IMG/VR virus record: IMGVR_UViG_2519899562_000018
Origin: a virus
Lineage: Duplodnaviria; Heunggongvirae; Uroviricota; Caudoviricetes
Strand: one strand, 5' to 3'
Length of the DNA stretch: 32,756 bases
The notes beneath the pieces are model-generated. The model had not been told where the DNA came from. It ran no database searches and worked only from the letters and a program-made list of their open reading frames with translations. Both the position numbers and the translations under genes were made by a program. Below, piece by piece: positions 1 to 20,935 of the stretch (position 1 is the first letter of the stretch; every line of letters begins with the position of its first letter).

Positions 1-19
1 GTAATCACGCGGCTACACC

Positions 20-55
20 CTCACCCCGGCCCTCTCCCTAAGGGAGAGGGAGAAA
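20..55. repeat. GC-rich palindromic element (CCCTCTCCC-TAA-GGGAGAGGG) in presumed host flank, REP-like
   Basis: Perfect inverted repeat read directly in the sequence; resembles enterobacterial intergenic palindromes; function not established. Confidence 0.3.
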
Positions 56-239
56 AACTCTCCCGCTTTCGTTTTTAAGATTTTGTTGACCGTCTCAATT
101 AAACGCGTGACCCGACGCGGGAAATGTCGGGGCGCTCTCCCAAGTGACACACTTTCGAGAGGATTCAGGATGGGGCAATCATCGCAACCACATGAGTTAG
201 GCGGCGGGCTGAAGTCACGCCACGTGTAACCAGGTGAAT

Positions 240-400
240 CATTTGATACCGACAAGGGTTTTAGTGAAAGGAGGTGAAATCACCTGTAAGATGCTGAAAT
301 AAAACAGGTGATGTATACTTCGGACGGAAAACTCTTTTTGATACCGACTGCTCAACAAATAGTCAAAAGATCAAAAAACGGCGACACATTTGATACTGCT
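240..400 (+). repeat. Putative left-end (attL-like) region with three direct TTTGATAC(C/T)G repeats at about 242, 337 and 389
   Basis: Three direct copies with about 95 and 52 bp spacing, similar to L1-L2-L3 spacing in Mu attL; CAGGTGA motif also recurs at about 231, 281 (inverted) and 305. Confidence 0.4.
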
Positions 401-591
401 AATTTACCCTTAAAATCTTCTTCAAAACATCTTCAAAACATCTTCAAACTGCCAAAATGCTCACATAATCGATCTAACTATAATCAGTATGATAATCATC
501 ATGAATTACTATTCAATAGCGTGATTATCTTGGGATGAGTCATATGATCTCTATATGTATTTACAGCACCACCTCATGATAGCGATGGCGC

Positions 592-1203
592 TTAACCAAC
601 AACATTTTTCTTTACTGTCACTGCCCCTGATTCCTGGGTGGCGTTATTGCTCGAGTTGTACTTCTCAATAACGCGCAAAATCTCTTTGTCTGTTTCTTCA
701 CTTCCCGCCATTCCTATCTTTATTGCATTTTTTAGTACGGGACGTAATGGCAAGGCATCAATGATGCTTTCTACCGCATCCTGGCTGATTGTAGATGTAT
801 TCATTGCTGCCAGCCTGACAAGGTTATTAGTACCTTCTCGCCTGATGAATGTAAGGATTAATTGCTTCTCTTGGGGGCTTAGAGAGCTAAGCGCCTGATC
901 AATACCCGAACCTGAATCGCAATTGTTTTCGATTTTTCCGCATTCATCTTCGTTCTTGCCTGTGGCCAACCATTCGAGTGAACAATTACAGGCTTTAGCT
1001 ATTAAGGCCAGTTTATCCAAAGGAGGGAAGTTTTTCCCCTTCCTGTAATTTCTTACTGTGGCTTCAGATAGTCCACAAAGGGTCGCCAGTTCGACGTTTG
1101 TCATGTTTCCCATAGCCATAGCTAAGCGTTCTGAAAATCGGTTTATTCCTTCCATATCAATAAACCGTTCCGCACTGGATACGGTTTTTTCTGCCTTATC
1201 CAT
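592..1203 (-). CDS. Prophage repressor, XRE/Cro-C1 family helix-turn-helix protein (functional analogue of Mu c)
   Basis: 203 aa; HTH segment NVELATLCGLSEATVRNYRKG; divergent from ner at the position Mu c occupies; no S24 peptidase motif seen. Confidence 0.8.
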   Translation of the reverse strand: MDKAEKTVSSAERFIDMEGINRFSERLAMAMGNMTNVELATLCGLSEATVRNYRKGKNFPPLDKLALIAKACNCSLEWLATGKNEDECGKIENNCDSGSGIDQALSSLSPQEKQLILTFIRREGTNNLVRLAAMNTSTISQDAVESIIDALPLRPVLKNAIKIGMAGSEETDKEILRVIEKYNSSNNATQESGAVTVKKNVVG

Positions 1204-1359
1204 ATAACCCCCTATAAAACAAAGAAATTATCGACATCGCATTTAATTTCGATATGCTCGCAAAAAACCGTTGATATCGAATTATTTTGCGATTATGATT
1301 TACCTAAATCGATAACCGGTTTTGATTATCGGTTCAGGTAAACATGAGAGGATCACACA
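1204..1359. promoter_or_regulatory. Divergent repressor/early promoter-operator region
   Basis: AT-rich 156 bp between divergent genes; repeated TCGATA/TATCGA half-sites (about 1229, 1249, 1273, 1309, 1326); candidate rightward -35 TTGATA (about 1271) and -10 TATGAT (about 1294); SD GAGAGGA before ner. Confidence 0.5.
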
Positions 1360-1626
1360 ATGAGGGTATCCAGACAAGCATCGAATAATTTGTTTGTTCG
1401 AGAGGGGTGTGACTGGTCTGCTAAAGCGGTATATGCAGCCCTTGAAAACAAAGGCACAGACCTCCCTGAACTGGAAAGGGAGTTAGGATTAAAAAGCGGA
1501 TCAATGCGCAATGTGTTTTACCGCCAGTGCCGTAAATACGAAGCCGCCATCGCCGAAAAAATAGGGGTTGAACCTGCTGTAATCTGGCCCAGCAGATACC
1601 AGGTGGACGCCAGAGAAGTGGCTTGA
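1360..1626 (+). CDS. ner: Ner-like DNA-binding protein (Ner/Nlp family)
   Basis: 88 aa; DW...IWPSRYQ C-terminal signature characteristic of Mu Ner / E. coli Nlp; immediately upstream of transposase. Confidence 0.85.
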   Translation: MRVSRQASNNLFVREGCDWSAKAVYAALENKGTDLPELERELGLKSGSMRNVFYRQCRKYEAAIAEKIGVEPAVIWPSRYQVDAREVA

Positions 1627-1636
1627 TGGGGGATGT

Positions 1637-3727
1637 ATGTGGGTAACAGCAAAAGAATGTGTTGGTCTTCCTGATTTACCAATGATGGAACATAACATTC
1701 GCCATCGACTCACAAAAGCAGCTGCGGGAAATGCAGCCATGTTACGCAAACGTAAGGGGACAAAAGCAATCGAATTTAATATCGATTGTTTGCCTTCTGG
1801 CGCGCAACAAGTATTGCGTGAACGTTATGCCCTTCAACTGATGACGCAAAAAGCTGATGAATCACCGGCTCCGGTGGTGACAAAGGCCAGACGCTCGCCT
1901 GCCGTGGTTGATGCGGTGGAGGCATATCGCGGATCACCACAACTGATGGTTGAACGCCTTAATGCCCTGACTGAAAACCAGCGCCAGGTGGCTGATGCAC
2001 GAATTGCGATCGTCAGCGAAGTGATGAAAGTCGCGCAACAACCCGGTTTCAGCTGTGCGAAAGCTATCCGGTTTATCGTTGACAACCTGGCACGTTCGCA
2101 ACTGGACGAGCGCATTGTGGCAATGGTTGAGACGGCGAACGCCAAAAAGGGAAACAGCCGTGCGTTGAGTGAAATAACGCTGAAACGCTGGATTGCGGCC
2201 TTTAACAAGGCGCAGAACGCCGCTGAACGCCTGCTTTTACTGGCACCGGGTAAGCGCCAGGAAATAAAAGCCGAAGATATTAACTGGCTGCCCGAATTTC
2301 TGGCGCAGTATCGCCAGTCAAACGGCCGACCAATGACCGAGGCTTACGAGGATTTTGTCGCTGAATGGCAGCACCGGCACGCTGATGAGCCTTATATGCT
2401 CGATATCATGCCGTCTTATGACACCATTCGCCGCGCAATGAAGAAACTGCCGGAAGTGGTGAAACAAAAAGGCCGGGTGACCGGCAGTGAATACCGCCAG
2501 CTTGAGGGATTCACGCGCCGCGACTGGTCCAGAATGCCGGTGAATTATGTCTGGATTGGTGACGGTCACGGCATGAAGCTGAAATGCGCACACCCGGTTC
2601 ACGGTCGGCCATTTGCACCGGAAGTGACCTTTGTTATCGACGGTGGCACGCGCTTTGTGGTGGGCTGGAGCCTTGACCTGGCTGAAAATGTTTTCGCCGT
2701 AGCCGGTGCCATACAGCACGGCATTCGCCATCACGGCAAACCGTTTCTGTATTACTCGGATAACGGCTCCGGGGAAACCGCCGACATCCTGGATAAGGAG
2801 GTTGTGGGGATACTGCCGCGACTGGGGATTAATCACCCGACCGGGATTGCCGGTAATCCGCAGGGACGAGGCATTATCGAACGGCTTAACCGCACATTAC
2901 CGATGCGCATAGCCCGTAAATACCGCACCTATTTCGGGAAAGGTGCAGATCGCGAGACGTTACGCAAAACCAACCGCGATTTACGCTCGGCATTTACTGC
3001 CCTGCAACAGGGCAAACGGCTGAACGCCCGGCAGCAGTCAGCGATGCGTGATTTACCGTCCTGGTCTGAACTGATTGATGCCATTCGTGACGGTGTTGAG
3101 TGGTACAACAACCGGCCGCACGATGAATTACCGGTGAAGCCGAACGGCAAGCATTACAGCCCGGCGGAGTTCAGAAAAAAACGCCTGGCGGAAGAGGACA
3201 CGGAAATTGAATGGCTGTCCGATGTTGAGCTGCGGGATATGTTCCGGCCGATGGTGGAACGCCCTGTAAGACGCTGTGAAATACGCTGGCTGAATAATAT
3301 TTACTACGCGCCCGAGCTGCGTGACGAGCATGGTCGTAAGGTGCTTATCAGCTATGACATTCATGATGCCGAACGAATTACCGTACGTCGCCTGGATGGC
3401 AGCGTGATTTGCGAGGCGGTATGGGACGGTAATAAACGCGAAGCCTTCCCGGTTAGCGCGGAATACTACAAACAGCAGCAACGCCTTAAAGGCATGCGTA
3501 AACGCGCAGAGGAAAAAATCCGTGATGCCGAGGATGAGGTTGTCAACGTGCTGGAGCACAAGCCGCAGGAGCCCTGGCTGGAAAACATATACCGCCCTGT
3601 GGGTAATACGGTGACCGTTCAGCAACCGGTCGCTGACGATGAACCTGATGAAGAATACGAGCGTAATTTCCAGCGGGGATTGCAGTTGCTGGAAGCGAAA
3701 TTAAAAGAAAATGACCCGCTGGCCTGA
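1637..3727 (+). CDS. Mu-type DDE transposase (MuA-like)
   Basis: 696 aa (Mu A is 663 aa); core region VWIGDGHGMKL...VIDGGTRFVVGW typical of DDE transposase/integrase fold; position after ner. Confidence 0.9.
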   Translation: MWVTAKECVGLPDLPMMEHNIRHRLTKAAAGNAAMLRKRKGTKAIEFNIDCLPSGAQQVLRERYALQLMTQKADESPAPVVTKARRSPAVVDAVEAYRGSPQLMVERLNALTENQRQVADARIAIVSEVMKVAQQPGFSCAKAIRFIVDNLARSQLDERIVAMVETANAKKGNSRALSEITLKRWIAAFNKAQNAAERLLLLAPGKRQEIKAEDINWLPEFLAQYRQSNGRPMTEAYEDFVAEWQHRHADEPYMLDIMPSYDTIRRAMKKLPEVVKQKGRVTGSEYRQLEGFTRRDWSRMPVNYVWIGDGHGMKLKCAHPVHGRPFAPEVTFVIDGGTRFVVGWSLDLAENVFAVAGAIQHGIRHHGKPFLYYSDNGSGETADILDKEVVGILPRLGINHPTGIAGNPQGRGIIERLNRTLPMRIARKYRTYFGKGADRETLRKTNRDLRSAFTALQQGKRLNARQQSAMRDLPSWSELIDAIRDGVEWYNNRPHDELPVKPNGKHYSPAEFRKKRLAEEDTEIEWLSDVELRDMFRPMVERPVRRCEIRWLNNIYYAPELRDEHGRKVLISYDIHDAERITVRRLDGSVICEAVWDGNKREAFPVSAEYYKQQQRLKGMRKRAEEKIRDAEDEVVNVLEHKPQEPWLENIYRPVGNTVTVQQPVADDEPDEEYERNFQRGLQLLEAKLKENDPLA

Positions 3728-3798: not shown

Positions 3799-4731
3799 AT
3801 GACTGATATTAACGATGTAATCAAGACCATTGATGAACTTATTGATGGCGGCGTACTGACGCAGTATGCCATCGCCAGAGAGGCGGGAATTTCCGACGGC
3901 ACATTATCGGCTTTCCGTAAGGGAAAATATAAAGGCGATAACGCTGCTGTGGCTGCTTCCCTGCGTTCCTGGTATGAGAACTGGAATAAACAAAGCGCAC
4001 TGCCGGAACCGCCGCAGTTTGTGGAAACGCAGACAGTCCAGGAGCTGCGCGCACTGTTTCAGGCGGTTCGTCTGATGGGCTGTATTAACGTTATTGTGGG
4101 CGTACCGGGTGTGGGTAAAACGGCCACTGCCCGTAATTACTGCCAGGAGCAACCAAACACCTGGATGATCACCCTGTCACCCGCGCACTCCAGCGTCACG
4201 GAGTGTCTGCTGGAGCTGGCCGATGCGCTGGGGATTGATTACACCCGCGCGAACAAAGGGGCATTATCCCGCGCCATCCGCCGTCGCCTGATGGGAACGC
4301 GTGGACTGGTGATTGTGGATGAGGCGGATCATCTTGGTATTGACGGTCTGGAGCAACTCCGGGCAATTCAGGACGCCACGGGGATCGGGATGGTGCTTAT
4401 TGGTAACCCGCGCGGATTGTTTAAAGGTGGACGCCGCGCCTTTGATGATTTATCGCGCCTGTTCAGCCGTCTTGCCCGTACAAAACAACTTCGCAAGGCC
4501 AAAAAGGCGGATGTGCTGGCCATTGCCAGGGCGTGGGGGATCAGTGGTGAGGCCGAGCTGGCCGTCATGCAGGCTATCGCTGAAAAGCCGGGAGCGTTAC
4601 GCGTTCTGACACATACGCTTAACCAGGCGTGGCTCACCGCCAGCGGTGAAGGCGCGGCGCTGACAGAAAAACATATTAATGCGGCCTTTAAAGAGGTTTA
4701 TACCAACCCTGAATTACTCTCACAGGTGTGA
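3799..4731 (+). CDS. MuB-like AAA+ ATPase, transposition target-DNA activator
   Basis: 310 aa (Mu B is 312 aa); Walker A GVPGVGKT, Walker B-like LVIVDEADHL; N-terminal HTH-like segment; directly after transposase. Confidence 0.85.
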   Translation: MTDINDVIKTIDELIDGGVLTQYAIAREAGISDGTLSAFRKGKYKGDNAAVAASLRSWYENWNKQSALPEPPQFVETQTVQELRALFQAVRLMGCINVIVGVPGVGKTATARNYCQEQPNTWMITLSPAHSSVTECLLELADALGIDYTRANKGALSRAIRRRLMGTRGLVIVDEADHLGIDGLEQLRAIQDATGIGMVLIGNPRGLFKGGRRAFDDLSRLFSRLARTKQLRKAKKADVLAIARAWGISGEAELAVMQAIAEKPGALRVLTHTLNQAWLTASGEGAALTEKHINAAFKEVYTNPELLSQV

Positions 4732-18863: not shown

Positions 18864-19988
18864 ATGAAGACGAAAAACACGCCCAAACTTGCTTATGCCA
18901 TTCTGAATGCCATCAGCCTGTCCGCAGACGGGGACGGTGACTGGTGTCAGATCATGCCAGCCGGTCGGGTAAAGGCCCGTGACGGTCGCCCGGAAAAACC
19001 GGCCGAGGGCTGGCTGATCAACCATGCAGCCGTTGAGCGCATGGTCTCCCGTGTTGTGGCGCTCAATCAGCCGGTGAAAATTGACTACAACCACCAGACC
19101 CTGATTGAGGGACATCCGGCACCGGCTGCCGGTTTTGTGATGGCCTCACCGGAGAATTTTCGCTTCAGTGAAGAGCGAGGTTTCGAGGTGCGCCCAAAGT
19201 GGAACCCTCCGGCCCTTGAACATCTGCGTAATAACGAATTCCCCTGGTTTTCACCGGTGATTGGCTATGACGAGAGCACCGGCGAACCTGTCGAACTTCG
19301 GATGCTGGCTATTACCGGTGACCCCGGTCTGACCGGCATGAATCCTGTCGCCGCACTGTCGGCGGATGACCTTTATAACGCCTTAAACCCTCCTTTAAAG
19401 GATACCTCCATGAATGAGCAATTACGCCAGTTGCTGACGGCGCTCGGTCTGACCGTGGCTGACGGTGACGAATTTACGCCGGAGCTGGGCACGGCGGCGC
19501 TGTCTGCCCTCACCGGGATCAAAACCCGTGCGGATGCACACGACAACCTGAAAACACAGGTCGCCAGTCTGTCGGCAGAGCTGGAAACCGCAAAAGGCAC
19601 ACCGGCTGGCGGCAGTATTGATCTGACGAAATACGTGCCCGTTGAAACGTATAACGCCCTGCGTACCGAATACGTTGCGCTGTCGGCGCAGCACGGCAGC
19701 ACCACGCTGGAGCAGGTGCTGGACAAGGCTGAATCCGAAGGGCGCATCTTCAAAAGCGAACGCGGCTATCTGGAACAACTGGGCGGGCAGATTGGCGTTG
19801 CGGCACTTTCTGCACAGCTTGACGCCCGCCAGCCGGTTGCGGCCCTGACCGGCCTTCAGACCGACACCGTGACCGTGCCGGATAAAAAGACTGCCACCGC
19901 TGTGCTGTCGGCTGAAGATATCGCGGCCGCCAAACTGCTGGGTAAAACCGAAGCCGAGTTCCTGAAAATGAAAGAGGAAATGCAATAA
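18864..19988 (+). CDS. Head maturation protease/scaffold (Mu I / gp32-like)
   Basis: 374 aa; Ala-rich coiled-coil C-terminal half typical of scaffold; directly precedes major head gene. Confidence 0.75.
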   Translation: MKTKNTPKLAYAILNAISLSADGDGDWCQIMPAGRVKARDGRPEKPAEGWLINHAAVERMVSRVVALNQPVKIDYNHQTLIEGHPAPAAGFVMASPENFRFSEERGFEVRPKWNPPALEHLRNNEFPWFSPVIGYDESTGEPVELRMLAITGDPGLTGMNPVAALSADDLYNALNPPLKDTSMNEQLRQLLTALGLTVADGDEFTPELGTAALSALTGIKTRADAHDNLKTQVASLSAELETAKGTPAGGSIDLTKYVPVETYNALRTEYVALSAQHGSTTLEQVLDKAESEGRIFKSERGYLEQLGGQIGVAALSAQLDARQPVAALTGLQTDTVTVPDKKTATAVLSAEDIAAAKLLGKTEAEFLKMKEEMQ

Positions 19989-20935
19989 TGCCTACCCCGA
20001 TTACACCGGCGATGATCACCGCCCTGATGACGGGCTACCGTTCTGATTTTCAGGCCGGGATGTCCATGGCCCCGTCGCAGTACAAAAAAATTGCGATGAC
20101 CGTACCGTCCACGTCGAAATCCAACACCTACGGCTGGCTGGGGCAGTTCCCGCAGTTCCGTGAGTGGATCGGCTCCCGCGTCATCGAGAAGATGAAGGCC
20201 TATGGCTATGCCATCGTGAACAAAACCTTTGAAGGCACCGTCGCCATTAACCGCGATGACTTCGAAGACGATAACCTCGGTATTTATTCCCCGTTGTTCC
20301 AGGAGATGGGGCGCGCTGCTGCGGCACAACCGGATGAACTGGTCTTTGCTGCTCTTCGTGACGGGATTAATGCGGCCTGCTATGACGGCCAGAACTTCTT
20401 TGATACCGAACATCCTGTTTACCCCAAAGTGGATGGCTCCGGGGATGCGCAGATGGTCAGCAATATGTTTGTGGCAAAAACCGGCTCTGTCGGTGCACAA
20501 GCGGATTACAGCGGTCCTGCCTGGTATCTGCTCGACTGTTCACGCGCAATCAAACCGCTGATTTATCAGGATCGCCGTAAGGCTGAACTGGTTGCCCAGA
20601 CCAAAGTCGATGAAGGTCGCGCATTCACCGATAACGAATTTGTGTTTGGTGCATCCGCCCGTCGCAATGTGGGCTACGGCTTCTGGCAGATGGCCTACAT
20701 GATGCAGTCACCGCTGACGCTGGATGCACTGTGGCACGGCTGGTCAGCCATGCGCGAATTTACCGCTGACGGTGGCCGCAAACTCGGCATCAAACCCACC
20801 CATATTGTTGTCCCCACCTCGCTGGAAAAACAGGCGGTGCAGCTGCTGGAGCGTGAACTGTTCGCAGACGGAAACGCAACCGTCTCTAACGAGATGAAGG
20901 GCAAGCTGGAGCTGGTTGTCGCGGATTATCTGTAA
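19988..20935 (+). CDS. Major head (capsid) protein (Mu T / gp34-like)
   Basis: 315 aa; position after protease/scaffold; stem-loop immediately downstream. Confidence 0.85.
   Translation: MPTPITPAMITALMTGYRSDFQAGMSMAPSQYKKIAMTVPSTSKSNTYGWLGQFPQFREWIGSRVIEKMKAYGYAIVNKTFEGTVAINRDDFEDDNLGIYSPLFQEMGRAAAAQPDELVFAALRDGINAACYDGQNFFDTEHPVYPKVDGSGDAQMVSNMFVAKTGSVGAQADYSGPAWYLLDCSRAIKPLIYQDRRKAELVAQTKVDEGRAFTDNEFVFGASARRNVGYGFWQMAYMMQSPLTLDALWHGWSAMREFTADGGRKLGIKPTHIVVPTSLEKQAVQLLERELFADGNATVSNEMKGKLELVVADYL

What the first reader, a model, noticed from the sequence alone, without database searches (positions are those of the whole stretch)
225..410. Prophage left end: direct TTTGATAC(C/T)G repeats with Mu-like L1/L2/L3 spacing, and ambiguous terminus
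Transposable phages end in 5'-TG and carry three transposase-binding sites at the left end. Here TTTGATACCGAC occurs at about 242 and 337 and TTTGATACTG at about 389, with spacing (about 95 and 52 bp) close to Mu's L1-L2-L3 layout. Candidate termini are TGTAAC at about 225 and TGTATAC at about 312 (Mu starts TGTATT). A CAGGTGA motif also recurs at about 231, 281 (inverted, within the palindrome GGTGAAATCACC) and 305. The exact host-phage junction cannot be fixed without the right end.
Basis: partly seen in the sequence, partly recalled or inferred. Interest (0 to 1): 0.5.

Follow-up and report, generated by a model that had tools for sequence, protein, structure and literature searches.

The report
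Left end of Sp18-type Mu-like prophage
This is the left end of a known kind of Mu-like (Sp18-type) jumping prophage inserted in the E. coli gabP gene; the phage starts at base 225 and carries three likely transposase-docking repeats, and its one unusual trait is a 4-bp rather than 5-bp target duplication.

Summary
TTTGATACYG occurs at 242, 337 and 389, against 0.1 copies expected in the whole window. The window holds a Mu-like transposable prophage of the Sp18 group (E. coli O157 Sakai) inserted in codon 19 of gabP. More than 20 independent insertions and the uninterrupted gabP site fix the junction at base 225 (TGTAAC...), not 312. The right end lies about 6.3 kb beyond the window and was read from a near-identical genome. 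It carries three inverted copies of the motif, and site 1 sits at the same distance from the tip at both ends. Core offsets are 19/114/166 on the left and 19/41/76 on the right, which parallels Mu (22/127/167 and 22/44). The L2 and L3 cores are invariant islands in otherwise 49%-identical sequence. Two sister lineages keep the same geometry, one with a different motif and a diverged transposase DNA-binding region. Two details depart from Mu: the duplication is 4 bp (CACG here, 8 of 8 clean insertions), and the right tip is ...TA, not ...CA. Six putative transposase sites in Sp18 are already cited in the literature, so the finding is ordinary. The 4-bp stagger and an AGGTGA array between L1 and L2 are minor open points.

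The parts
1..224 (+). Host flank: gabT-gabP intergenic region and gabP codons 1-18 (ATG at 170).
   Evidence: Matches 5398 E. coli records. The uninterrupted gabP site reads ...GTCACGCCACGTCACCATG....
221..224 (.). Left copy of the 4-bp target-site duplication, CACG.
   Evidence: CACG occurs once in the empty site and flanks both prophage ends in the same-site genome NZ_CP077567.
225..399 (+). attL module of the prophage, from the tip 5'-TG at 225-226 through site L3.
   Evidence: Homology in independent insertions begins at 225. Homology to Sp18-type phages (81%) runs 225-399 and then stops.
233..252 (+). Site L1: outer half GGTGA (233-237) plus core TTTGATACCGA (242-252). The TTGATAC core starts 19 nt from the tip.
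   Evidence: R1 sits at the same offset at the right end. GGYGA lies 9 nt outside the core in L1, L3 and R1.
232..311 (.). Array of four AGGTGA half-sites (232, 272, 280 inverted, 306) in the L1-L2 spacer, including the inverted repeat GGTGA-AA-TCACC at 273-284.
   Evidence: 4 of 20 window copies fall in 80 bp. The array is conserved in Sp18 and is absent from the last 300 bp at the right end, where the three right-end sites lie. Its function is unknown.
328..347 (+). Site L2, core TTTGATACCGA at 337-347.
   Evidence: The core is 11/11 conserved against Sp18 while flanking sequence is 41-59% identical.
380..399 (+). Site L3: outer half GGCGA (380-384) plus core TTTGATACTGC (389-399).
   Evidence: The core is 11/11 conserved against Sp18. 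L2-L3 spacing of 52 bp is identical in sister lineage 2.
592..1203 (-). CI-type repressor gene (203 aa).
   Evidence: Pfam Phage_CI_repr and HTH_3.
1204..1359 (.). Repressor-ner intergenic region: probable operators and early promoter.
   Evidence: Best promoter-like site has -35 TTGATA at 1271 and -10 TATGAT. The position matches Mu Pe/operators. This is inferred.
1360..1626 (+). Ner-like regulator gene (88 aa).
   Evidence: Pfam HTH_35, E=1.7e-20.
1637..3727 (+). MuA-family DDE transposase gene (696 aa).
   Evidence: Pfam Mu-transpos_C and HTH_Tnp_Mu_1. 23% identity to MuA over the full length, E=1e-13.
3799..4731 (+). MuB-like AAA+ target-capture ATPase gene (310 aa).
   Evidence: Pfam Phage-MuB_C. 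48% identity to MuB.

Best explanation
Bases 225-399 are the attL end of an Sp18-type, Mu-like transposable prophage of about 38.8 kb that transposed into codon 19 of E. coli gabP.

The three direct repeats L1, L2 and L3 are roughly 20-bp bipartite sites. Each has a core TTTGATACYG and a weaker outer half, GGYGA, 9 nt further out. The phage's MuA-family transposase (1637-3727) is inferred to bind them through its N-terminal DNA-binding domains. Three inverted copies (R1-R3) sit at the right end.

By analogy with Mu, the transposase synapses the two ends and nicks at the 3' end of the bottom strand at base 225 (...ACA-3') and at ...TATA-3' on the top strand of the right end. It then joins these ends to target DNA captured by the MuB-like ATPase. 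Here the stagger is 4 bp, which produced the CACG duplication.

What is shown: the junction position, the duplication, the site layout, its conservation, and the co-variation with the transposase. What is inferred from homology with Mu: the binding and the chemistry.
For: 1. **Gene content.** Mu-like synteny is present: repressor on the - strand, then ner, a MuA-like transposase and a MuB-like ATPase, with Gam, Mor, Mu-type head and tail genes and com-mom further on.
2. **Left junction.** More than 20 prophage copies in different genes (melA, betT, etk, a portal gene, siiEA, an IS66 element and others) all start homology at window 225.
3. **Empty site.** gabP is uninterrupted in 5394 genomes, with CACG present once.
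4. **Right end.** It reads ...GGTATCAAATGAAATGCAAATCGGTATCAAAAAAATCGCCGCGCTATA and carries three inverted motif copies. TTGATAC offsets are 19/41/76 on the right against 19/114/166 on the left. The Mu core offsets are 22/44 on the right and 22/127/167 on the left.
5. **Chance is excluded.** The motif has 0.1 copies expected in the window.
6. **Footprint.** The L2 and L3 cores are 22/22 identical to Sp18, while the surrounding 94 columns are 49% identical.
7. **Sister lineages keep the geometry.** In E. coli VL40 the motif is TTCAAGATAA, at left offsets 20/91/143 and right offsets 20/42/77. Its transposase is 38-59% identical in the N-terminal 240 aa and 89% identical in the catalytic core. In Yersinia phage vB_YpM_5 the motif is TTTGATACT, with right offsets 18/40/75.
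8. **Literature.** Sp18 is intact, is packaged and does not circularise (PMC2669165). Six putative transposase sites are cited for Sp18 (PMC2628397).
Against: - No biochemical binding data exist for this transposase and none could be produced here.
- The site sequence does not resemble the MuA 22-bp consensus.
- The right tip is TA rather than CA, and the duplication is 4 bp rather than 5 bp, so mechanistic details cannot simply be copied from Mu.
- The outer half-site is weakly conserved, and L2 lacks it.
- The right end is outside the window and was read from a near-identical genome.
Confidence: 0.9

Rival explanations
1. The true phage terminus is TGTATAC at 312, and 225-311 is host DNA or the remnant of another element.
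For: TGTATAC resembles Mu's TGTATT tip.
Against: Every independent insertion shares sequence from 225 onward with unrelated flanks. The empty gabP site joins base 224 directly to the right flank. With the tip at 225, L1 sits at the same distance from the tip as R1.
Confidence: 0.01
2. The TTTGATACYG repeats are operators for the phage repressor or Ner (regulatory sites), not transposase sites.
For: A related sequence, GTTGATATCGA, lies at 1270 in the repressor-ner intergenic region.
Against: Sp18-type phages share these repeats although their repressor, ner and operator module is non-homologous; homology is lost from 400 to about 1763. The repeats occur inverted at the far right end, at tip-matched offsets. 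The 1270 copy coincides with a -35 hexamer. When the motif changes, the transposase N-terminal region changes with it.
Confidence: 0.04
3. The AGGTGA array (232-311) is a separate functional element in the L1-L2 spacer. It could be a binding array for an accessory protein or a transposase subdomain that bends or organises the left end. Mu, where HU bends this spacer (recalled, not checked here), carries different repeats at this position.
For: The clustering is non-random. The array is conserved in Sp18 across different immunity types. Mu, the Yersinia phage and lineage 2 carry a different repeated motif, CGGGA(G/A/T), at the same position. The 232 copy coincides with the L1 outer half-site, GGYGA.
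Against: Columns 1-90 of attL are 97% identical between the only two lineages that have the array, so conservation there is uninformative. No candidate binding protein was identified. The array is absent from the last 300 bp at the right end.
Confidence: 0.3
4. The repeats are a chance or compositional feature of an AT-rich non-coding end.
For: The region is AT-rich and non-coding.
Against: Shuffles expect 0.10 copies and the left end alone has three. Three more copies lie at the right end, and the geometry is conserved in three lineages.
Confidence: 0.01

Closest known systems
Prophage Sp18 of E. coli O157:H7 Sakai (Mu-like) and the Mu-like phages inserted in STEC Stx phages (e.g. Mu_JNE122137 in LC727895)
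   Same: - The tips are the same (TGTAAC...GCGCTATA).
- The six TTTGATAC sites are at the same positions.
- The AGGTGA array is the same.
- The duplication is 4 bp (TAAA in sorM, AGAG in the Stx phage).
- The transposase gene is 97% identical in DNA from about codon 43 onward.
   Different: - The immunity module differs. Window 400 to about 1763, covering the repressor, ner, the operators and the first ~42 transposase codons, is non-homologous.
- The spacers around L2 and L3 are only about 49% identical.
Bacteriophage Mu attL/attR (MuA sites L1-L3 and R1-R3)
   Same: - There are three sites per end. L1 lies at the tip, and L2 and L3 lie about 100-170 bp inside. R1 and R2 are 22 bp apart.
- The left tip is 5'-TG.
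- MuA- and MuB-type proteins are encoded just inside the left end.
- Insertion is not site-specific.
   Different: - The site sequence is unrelated: TTTGATACYG here against ...CGAAA(A/G) in Mu.
- R3 is direct here and inverted in Mu.
- The right tip is TA rather than CA.
- The duplication is 4 bp rather than 5 bp.
- The transposase is only 23% identical to MuA.
- The repressor is CI-type.
Yersinia phage vB_YpM_5 (MT374853) and an E. coli/Shigella sister lineage (VL40, ECMA0423, SFBU1023)
   Same: - Right-end geometry is the same (22 and 35 bp).
- There are three direct sites at the left end.
- The lineage-2 transposase is 74% identical in protein; the Yersinia phage transposase region is about 77% identical in DNA.
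- The duplication is 4 bp (TTCA in VL40).
   Different: - Both tips are TA.
- In lineage 2 the motif is TTCAAGATAA.
- The L1-L2 spacing is 71 or 104 bp instead of 95 bp.
- The spacer carries Mu-like CGGGA repeats instead of AGGTGA.
Pseudomonas phage B3 (a transposable phage with a non-5-bp duplication)
   Same: It shows that duplication length varies among Mu-like phages; B3 makes 6 bp (PMC8705779).
   Different: B3 makes 6 bp and this clade makes 4 bp. No sequence comparison was done here.

Membership tests
Mu-type transposable phage end (attL) | A MuA-family DDE transposase and a MuB-type ATPase are encoded next to the left end, behind a repressor/ner switch. | tested here: met
   Pfam Mu-transpos_C (1.5e-17), HTH_Tnp_Mu_1 and Phage-MuB_C (2.5e-25). 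BLASTP gives 23% identity to MuA (E=1e-13) and 48% to MuB (E=4e-97).
Mu-type transposable phage end (attL) | Insertion at many unrelated sites, with no site-specific attachment site. | tested here: met
   Copies lie in gabP, melA, betT, etk, sorM, prophage portal and terminase genes, siiEA and others.
Mu-type transposable phage end (attL) | Three repeated transposase sites at each end, inverted between the ends, with L1 and R1 at the tips. | tested here: met
   Core offsets are 19/114/166 on the left and 19/41/76 on the right. The Mu layout is 22/127/167 and 22/44. Actual protein binding could not be tested with these tools.
Mu-type transposable phage end (attL) | Terminal dinucleotides 5'-TG...CA-3'. 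| tested here: not met
   The left tip TG is met. The right tip is ...GCGCTATA-3' in all 8 Sp18-type copies examined. The sister lineages have TA at both tips.
Mu-type transposable phage end (attL) | 5-bp target-site duplication. | tested here: not met
   The duplication is 4 bp in 8 of 8 clean insertions: CACG, CGTT, CAAC, CATA, CCAG, AGAG, TAAA and TTCA. The fifth base matches in only one of them. GenBank record LC727895 annotates 4-bp repeats.
Mu-type transposable phage end (attL) | Sites match the MuA 22-bp consensus (...CGAAA(A/G)). | tested here: not met
   Side-by-side comparison of the sites shows an unrelated core, with only a loose TCAyTTGA resemblance in L1.
Sp18 group of E. coli Mu-like prophages | Shared attL and attR sequences and a shared transposition module. 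| tested here: met
   attL is 81% identical over 175 bp with all three cores intact. attR is shared. The transposase and B region is 97% identical in DNA.
Mu/D108-type enhancer arrangement (the transposase N-terminal domain binds the operator region) | The transposase N-terminus co-varies with the immunity and operator module. | tested here: inconclusive
   The mosaic boundary falls about 42 codons into the transposase gene, as it would for a co-varying module. The N-terminal WVxxKEC...KAIE(F/Y)N motif is shared with MuA.

The most novel reading that the evidence does not exclude
The Sp18 clade of 'Mu-like' phages (Sp18-type, the VL40 lineage, and for tip sequence only the Yersinia vB_YpM phages) is a natural variant of the Mu transpososome. 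It joins its ends to the target with a 4-bp stagger and uses ...TA-3' tips in place of the canonical CA. I found no paper in the searched library that describes this; it appears only as a GenBank feature. In addition, the Sp18-type L1-L2 spacer carries an array of four AGGTGA half-sites that may be a lineage-specific accessory or architectural element. The probability given is that both the 4-bp/TA trait is genuinely undescribed and it reflects a real difference in transpososome geometry.
Probability: 0.35. Interest if true: 0.4.

Novelty: already known. Interest (0 to 1): 0.2.

Why it matters
For annotation, this fixes the prophage boundary at base 225 and shows that gabP is disrupted at codon 19. 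It also supplies a reusable end signature for finding Sp18-type prophages: TGTAAC-N12-TTTGATACCGA on the left and TCGGTATCAAAAAAATCGCCGCGCTATA on the right, flanked by a 4-bp duplication. These prophages move within STEC genomes and interrupt Stx phages and other genes.

For transposition biology, the clade offers a natural comparison with Mu. The site architecture and MuB are the same, but the stagger is 4 bp and the tips are TA. That could help define what sets target-cut spacing and end recognition in DDE transpososomes. Beyond that, the element is an ordinary member of a well-known kind.

Tried and rejected
- **Terminus at 312.** Rejected by the junction comparisons.
- **5-bp duplication, or other tip definitions.** I tried shifting T225 or the final A into the duplication, a 6-bp A-N4-T model, and treating the C after GCTATA as phage sequence. 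Each fails on at least two insertions.
- **sRNA or other RNA in 1-1700.** No Rfam match at E<=1.
- **ORFs 308-538 (+) and 13-255 (-).** No Pfam hit; treated as non-genes.
- **Operator role for the repeats.** Rejected, as set out under the rival explanations.
- **PDB sequence search with the transposase.** It found only retroviral integrase cores at E about 1e-4 and not MuA. Direct BLASTP was needed to show the 23% full-length relationship.
- **Literature on a 4-bp duplication in Mu-like phages.** Nothing was found. Morgan et al. 2002, apparently the source cited in PMC2628397 for the Sp18 sites, is not held.
- **NZ_CP178302.** Not in the E. coli collection, so VL40 was used instead.
- **IHF consensus in the L1-L2 spacer.** Checked by eye only; no convincing match.

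Full report
**Observation**

- TTTGATACYG matches at 242-251, 337-346 and 389-398, all on the + strand, plus one internal copy at 20399. The window has 4 matches against 0.10 expected, and no shuffle out of 100 reached 4.
- TGTAAC begins at 225 and TGTATAC at 312.
- CAGGTGA lies at 231 (+), 280-286 (-) and 305 (+). Window-wide this heptamer is not enriched (6 against 3.75 expected). The hexamer AGGTGA, however, has 4 of its 20 window copies within 80 bp (232, 272, 280 inverted, 306), where about 0.05 are expected.
- The 'palindrome' is the interrupted inverted repeat GGTGA-AA-TCACC at 273-284.

**What the element is**

The ORF map and Pfam give the canonical left arm of a Mu-like phage:
- a CI-type repressor on the minus strand (592-1203);
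- a Ner-like HTH_35 protein (1360-1626);
- a 696-aa protein with Mu-transpos_C and the Mu DNA-binding domain (1637-3727);
- a 310-aa AAA+ protein with the MuB C-terminal domain (3799-4731).

Direct BLASTP gives 23% identity to MuA over the full length (E=1e-13) and 48% to MuB.

The same prophage at the same site occurs in two E. coli O111:H11 genomes at 99.9% identity. The annotated copy is 38,840 bp and carries Gam, Mor, lysis genes, Mu-type head and tail genes, an invertase and com-mom.

The literature calls this group Sp18-like, after the Mu-like prophage of O157 Sakai. Sp18 is intact, is packaged and is not circularised (PMC2669165). Similar phages sit at variable loci in STEC, including inside Stx phages (PMC10132054, PMC7430833).

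**The junction**

- Against 5426 complete E. coli genomes, bases 1-224 are ubiquitous host DNA: the gabT-gabP spacer and the first 18 codons of gabP.
- Copies of the phage in unrelated genes (melA, betT, etk, a portal gene, siiEA, an IS66 element and others) all begin homology at 225.
- The junction sequences show the conserved TGTAACCAGG preceded by unrelated flanks.
- A reconstructed empty site, made of the left flank plus the right flank minus one CACG, matches 5394 genomes end to end.
- A fetched example reads ...GTCACGCCACGTCACCATG....

The host-phage junction is therefore 224|225. The alternative at 312 is excluded.

**The right end**

The right end lies about 6.3 kb beyond the window. 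In the same-site genome it reads ...GGTATCAAATGAAATGCAAATCGGTATCAAAAAAATCGCCGCGCTATA|CACGTCACC. Read inward from the tip, TTGATAC cores lie at offsets 19, 41 and 76. At the left end they lie at 19, 114 and 166. Site 1 is therefore at the same distance from the tip at both ends, and all six sites point inward.

For comparison, Mu's CGAAA cores lie at 22, 127 and 167 on the left, and at 22 and 44 on the right, with R3 inverted. The overall architecture is shared: L1 alone at the tip, L2 and L3 100-170 bp inside, and R1 and R2 22 bp apart. The site sequence is not shared.

A weaker outer half-site, GGYGA, lies 9 nt outside the core in L1, L3 and R1 (R2 and R3 have GCA there). This gives a bipartite site of about 20 bp.

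**Evidence that the repeats are functional**

1. Against Sp18 and Mu_JNE122137, attL columns 1-90 are 97% identical. The next 116 columns are 49% identical outside the cores, yet the L2 and L3 11-mers are 22/22 identical. Roughly, 0.49^22 is about 1e-7.
2. Homology with Sp18-type phages ends just after L3 (399) and resumes only at about 1763. So 225-399 behaves as a discrete module.
3. A sister lineage (E. coli VL40, ECMA0423 and Shigella SFBU1023) has a different motif, TTCAAGATAA(C/A), in the same arrangement: left 20/91/143, right 20/42/77. Its transposase is 38-59% identical in the N-terminal 240 aa, which in MuA hold the DNA-binding domains, and 89% identical in the catalytic core. The motif and the DNA-binding region change together.
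4. Yersinia phage vB_YpM_5 has TTTGATACT sites at right offsets 18/40/75, and at left offsets 18/122/164, which give Mu-like spacings of 104 and 42.
5. A 2008 paper already refers to six putative transposase-binding sites in Sp18 (PMC2628397). The primary source could not be read.

**Departures from Mu**

- In eight clean insertions the duplicated host sequence is 4 bp: CACG (gabP, checked against the empty site), CGTT (melA), CAAC (betT), CATA (etk), CCAG (portal), AGAG (Stx phage), TAAA (Sakai sorM) and TTCA (VL40).
- The fifth base agrees in only one case.
- No alternative placement of the tips rescues 5 bp.
- GenBank record LC727895 annotates 4-bp repeats.
- The right tip is ...TATA-3' in every Sp18-type copy. 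The two sister lineages have TA at both tips. These copies sit at many different sites, so TA tips are evidently functional.
- Published duplication lengths for transposable phages are 5 bp (Mu) and 6 bp (B3) (PMC8705779). I found no paper describing 4 bp.

**Most likely mechanism**

Shown: the position of the ends, the duplication, the six-site layout, its conservation, and its co-variation with the transposase.

Inferred from Mu:
- The transposase binds the six sites and pairs the ends.
- It nicks at the 3' ends (...ACA-3' on the bottom strand at 225, ...TATA-3' on the top strand at the right end).
- It transfers them to target DNA selected by the MuB-like ATPase, here with a 4-bp stagger.

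The immunity-module boundary falls about 42 codons into the transposase gene, and the N-terminal motif is shared with MuA. This suggests a Mu/D108-like arrangement in which the extreme N-terminus recognises the operator region as a transposition enhancer. That was not tested.

**Open sub-feature**

The AGGTGA array in the L1-L2 spacer is non-random and is shared by the two immunity types. It lies in the 97%-identical block, so its conservation is uninformative. Mu, the Yersinia phage and lineage 2 carry a different repeat, CGGGA(G/A/T), at this position, and the Yersinia spacer is visibly homologous to Mu's. A lineage-specific architectural or accessory site is possible, at about 0.3.

**Verdict**

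The finding is correct, and it identifies an ordinary, already known element. The terminus ambiguity is resolved to base 225. The only modestly unusual points are the 4-bp stagger and TA tips of this clade, and the AGGTGA array.

Noticed in passing
window 20399-20409: An exact internal copy of the 11-mer TTTGATACCGA lies inside the major head gene (19988-20935), about 52% along the prophage. About 0.02 copies are expected by chance. Lineage 2 has no internal copy of its own motif, so this is probably coincidence.
   Followed up: partly
window 400-1763: There is an immunity-module mosaic. Homology to Sp18-type phages stops after L3 (399) and resumes about 42 codons into the transposase gene. 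The repressor, ner, the operators and the transposase N-terminus are therefore exchanged as one block, reminiscent of what I recall for Mu versus D108 (from memory, not checked here).
   Followed up: partly
window 1270-1299: GTTGATATCGA, which resembles the end motif, coincides with the best sigma-70-like promoter (-35 TTGATA, 17-bp spacer, -10 TATGAT) facing ner. This is the probable early promoter.
   Followed up: partly
window 417-447: A short tandem repeat, CTTCAAAACAT x ~2.7, lies just inside L3. It is not conserved in Sp18, and its function is unknown.
   Followed up: no
window 480-535: An AT-rich stretch downstream of the repressor gene contains GATAATCA and GTGATTATC motifs similar to those in the repressor-ner intergenic region (GATTATGA, TGATTATCGG). 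It may be an extra operator-like site.
   Followed up: no
L006/L007 (NZ_CP028609) and L012/L013 (plasmid p8479-1, NZ_CP074995): Two of seven prophage copies have unrelated left and right flanks with no duplication. This indicates rearrangements between copies or products of replicative transposition. The 167-kb 'plasmid' carries the chromosomal genes ydhX and yeaW next to the prophage.
   Followed up: no
L025 1334-1433 (Yersinia phage vB_YpM_5, MT374853): The deposited 'circular' genome joins the right end to the left end through about 79 bp of non-phage DNA. These are probably packaged host flanks or an assembly artefact. The phage's L1-L2 spacer is clearly homologous to Mu's (CCGGGAGGA...CGGGAT.TGATGGGAT).
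   Followed up: partly
L018/L019 (NC_002695 Sakai): The RefSeq feature for Sp18 (5040971..5079729) starts one base inside the true tip (at G of TGTAAC). It also runs 5 bp past the right tip into the duplicated host sequence.
   Followed up: yes
window 48-64: The window has one more A (GAGAAAAACTC) than the same-site genome NZ_CP077567 in the gabT-gabP spacer. This is the only difference seen across the first 1400 bases.
   Followed up: no
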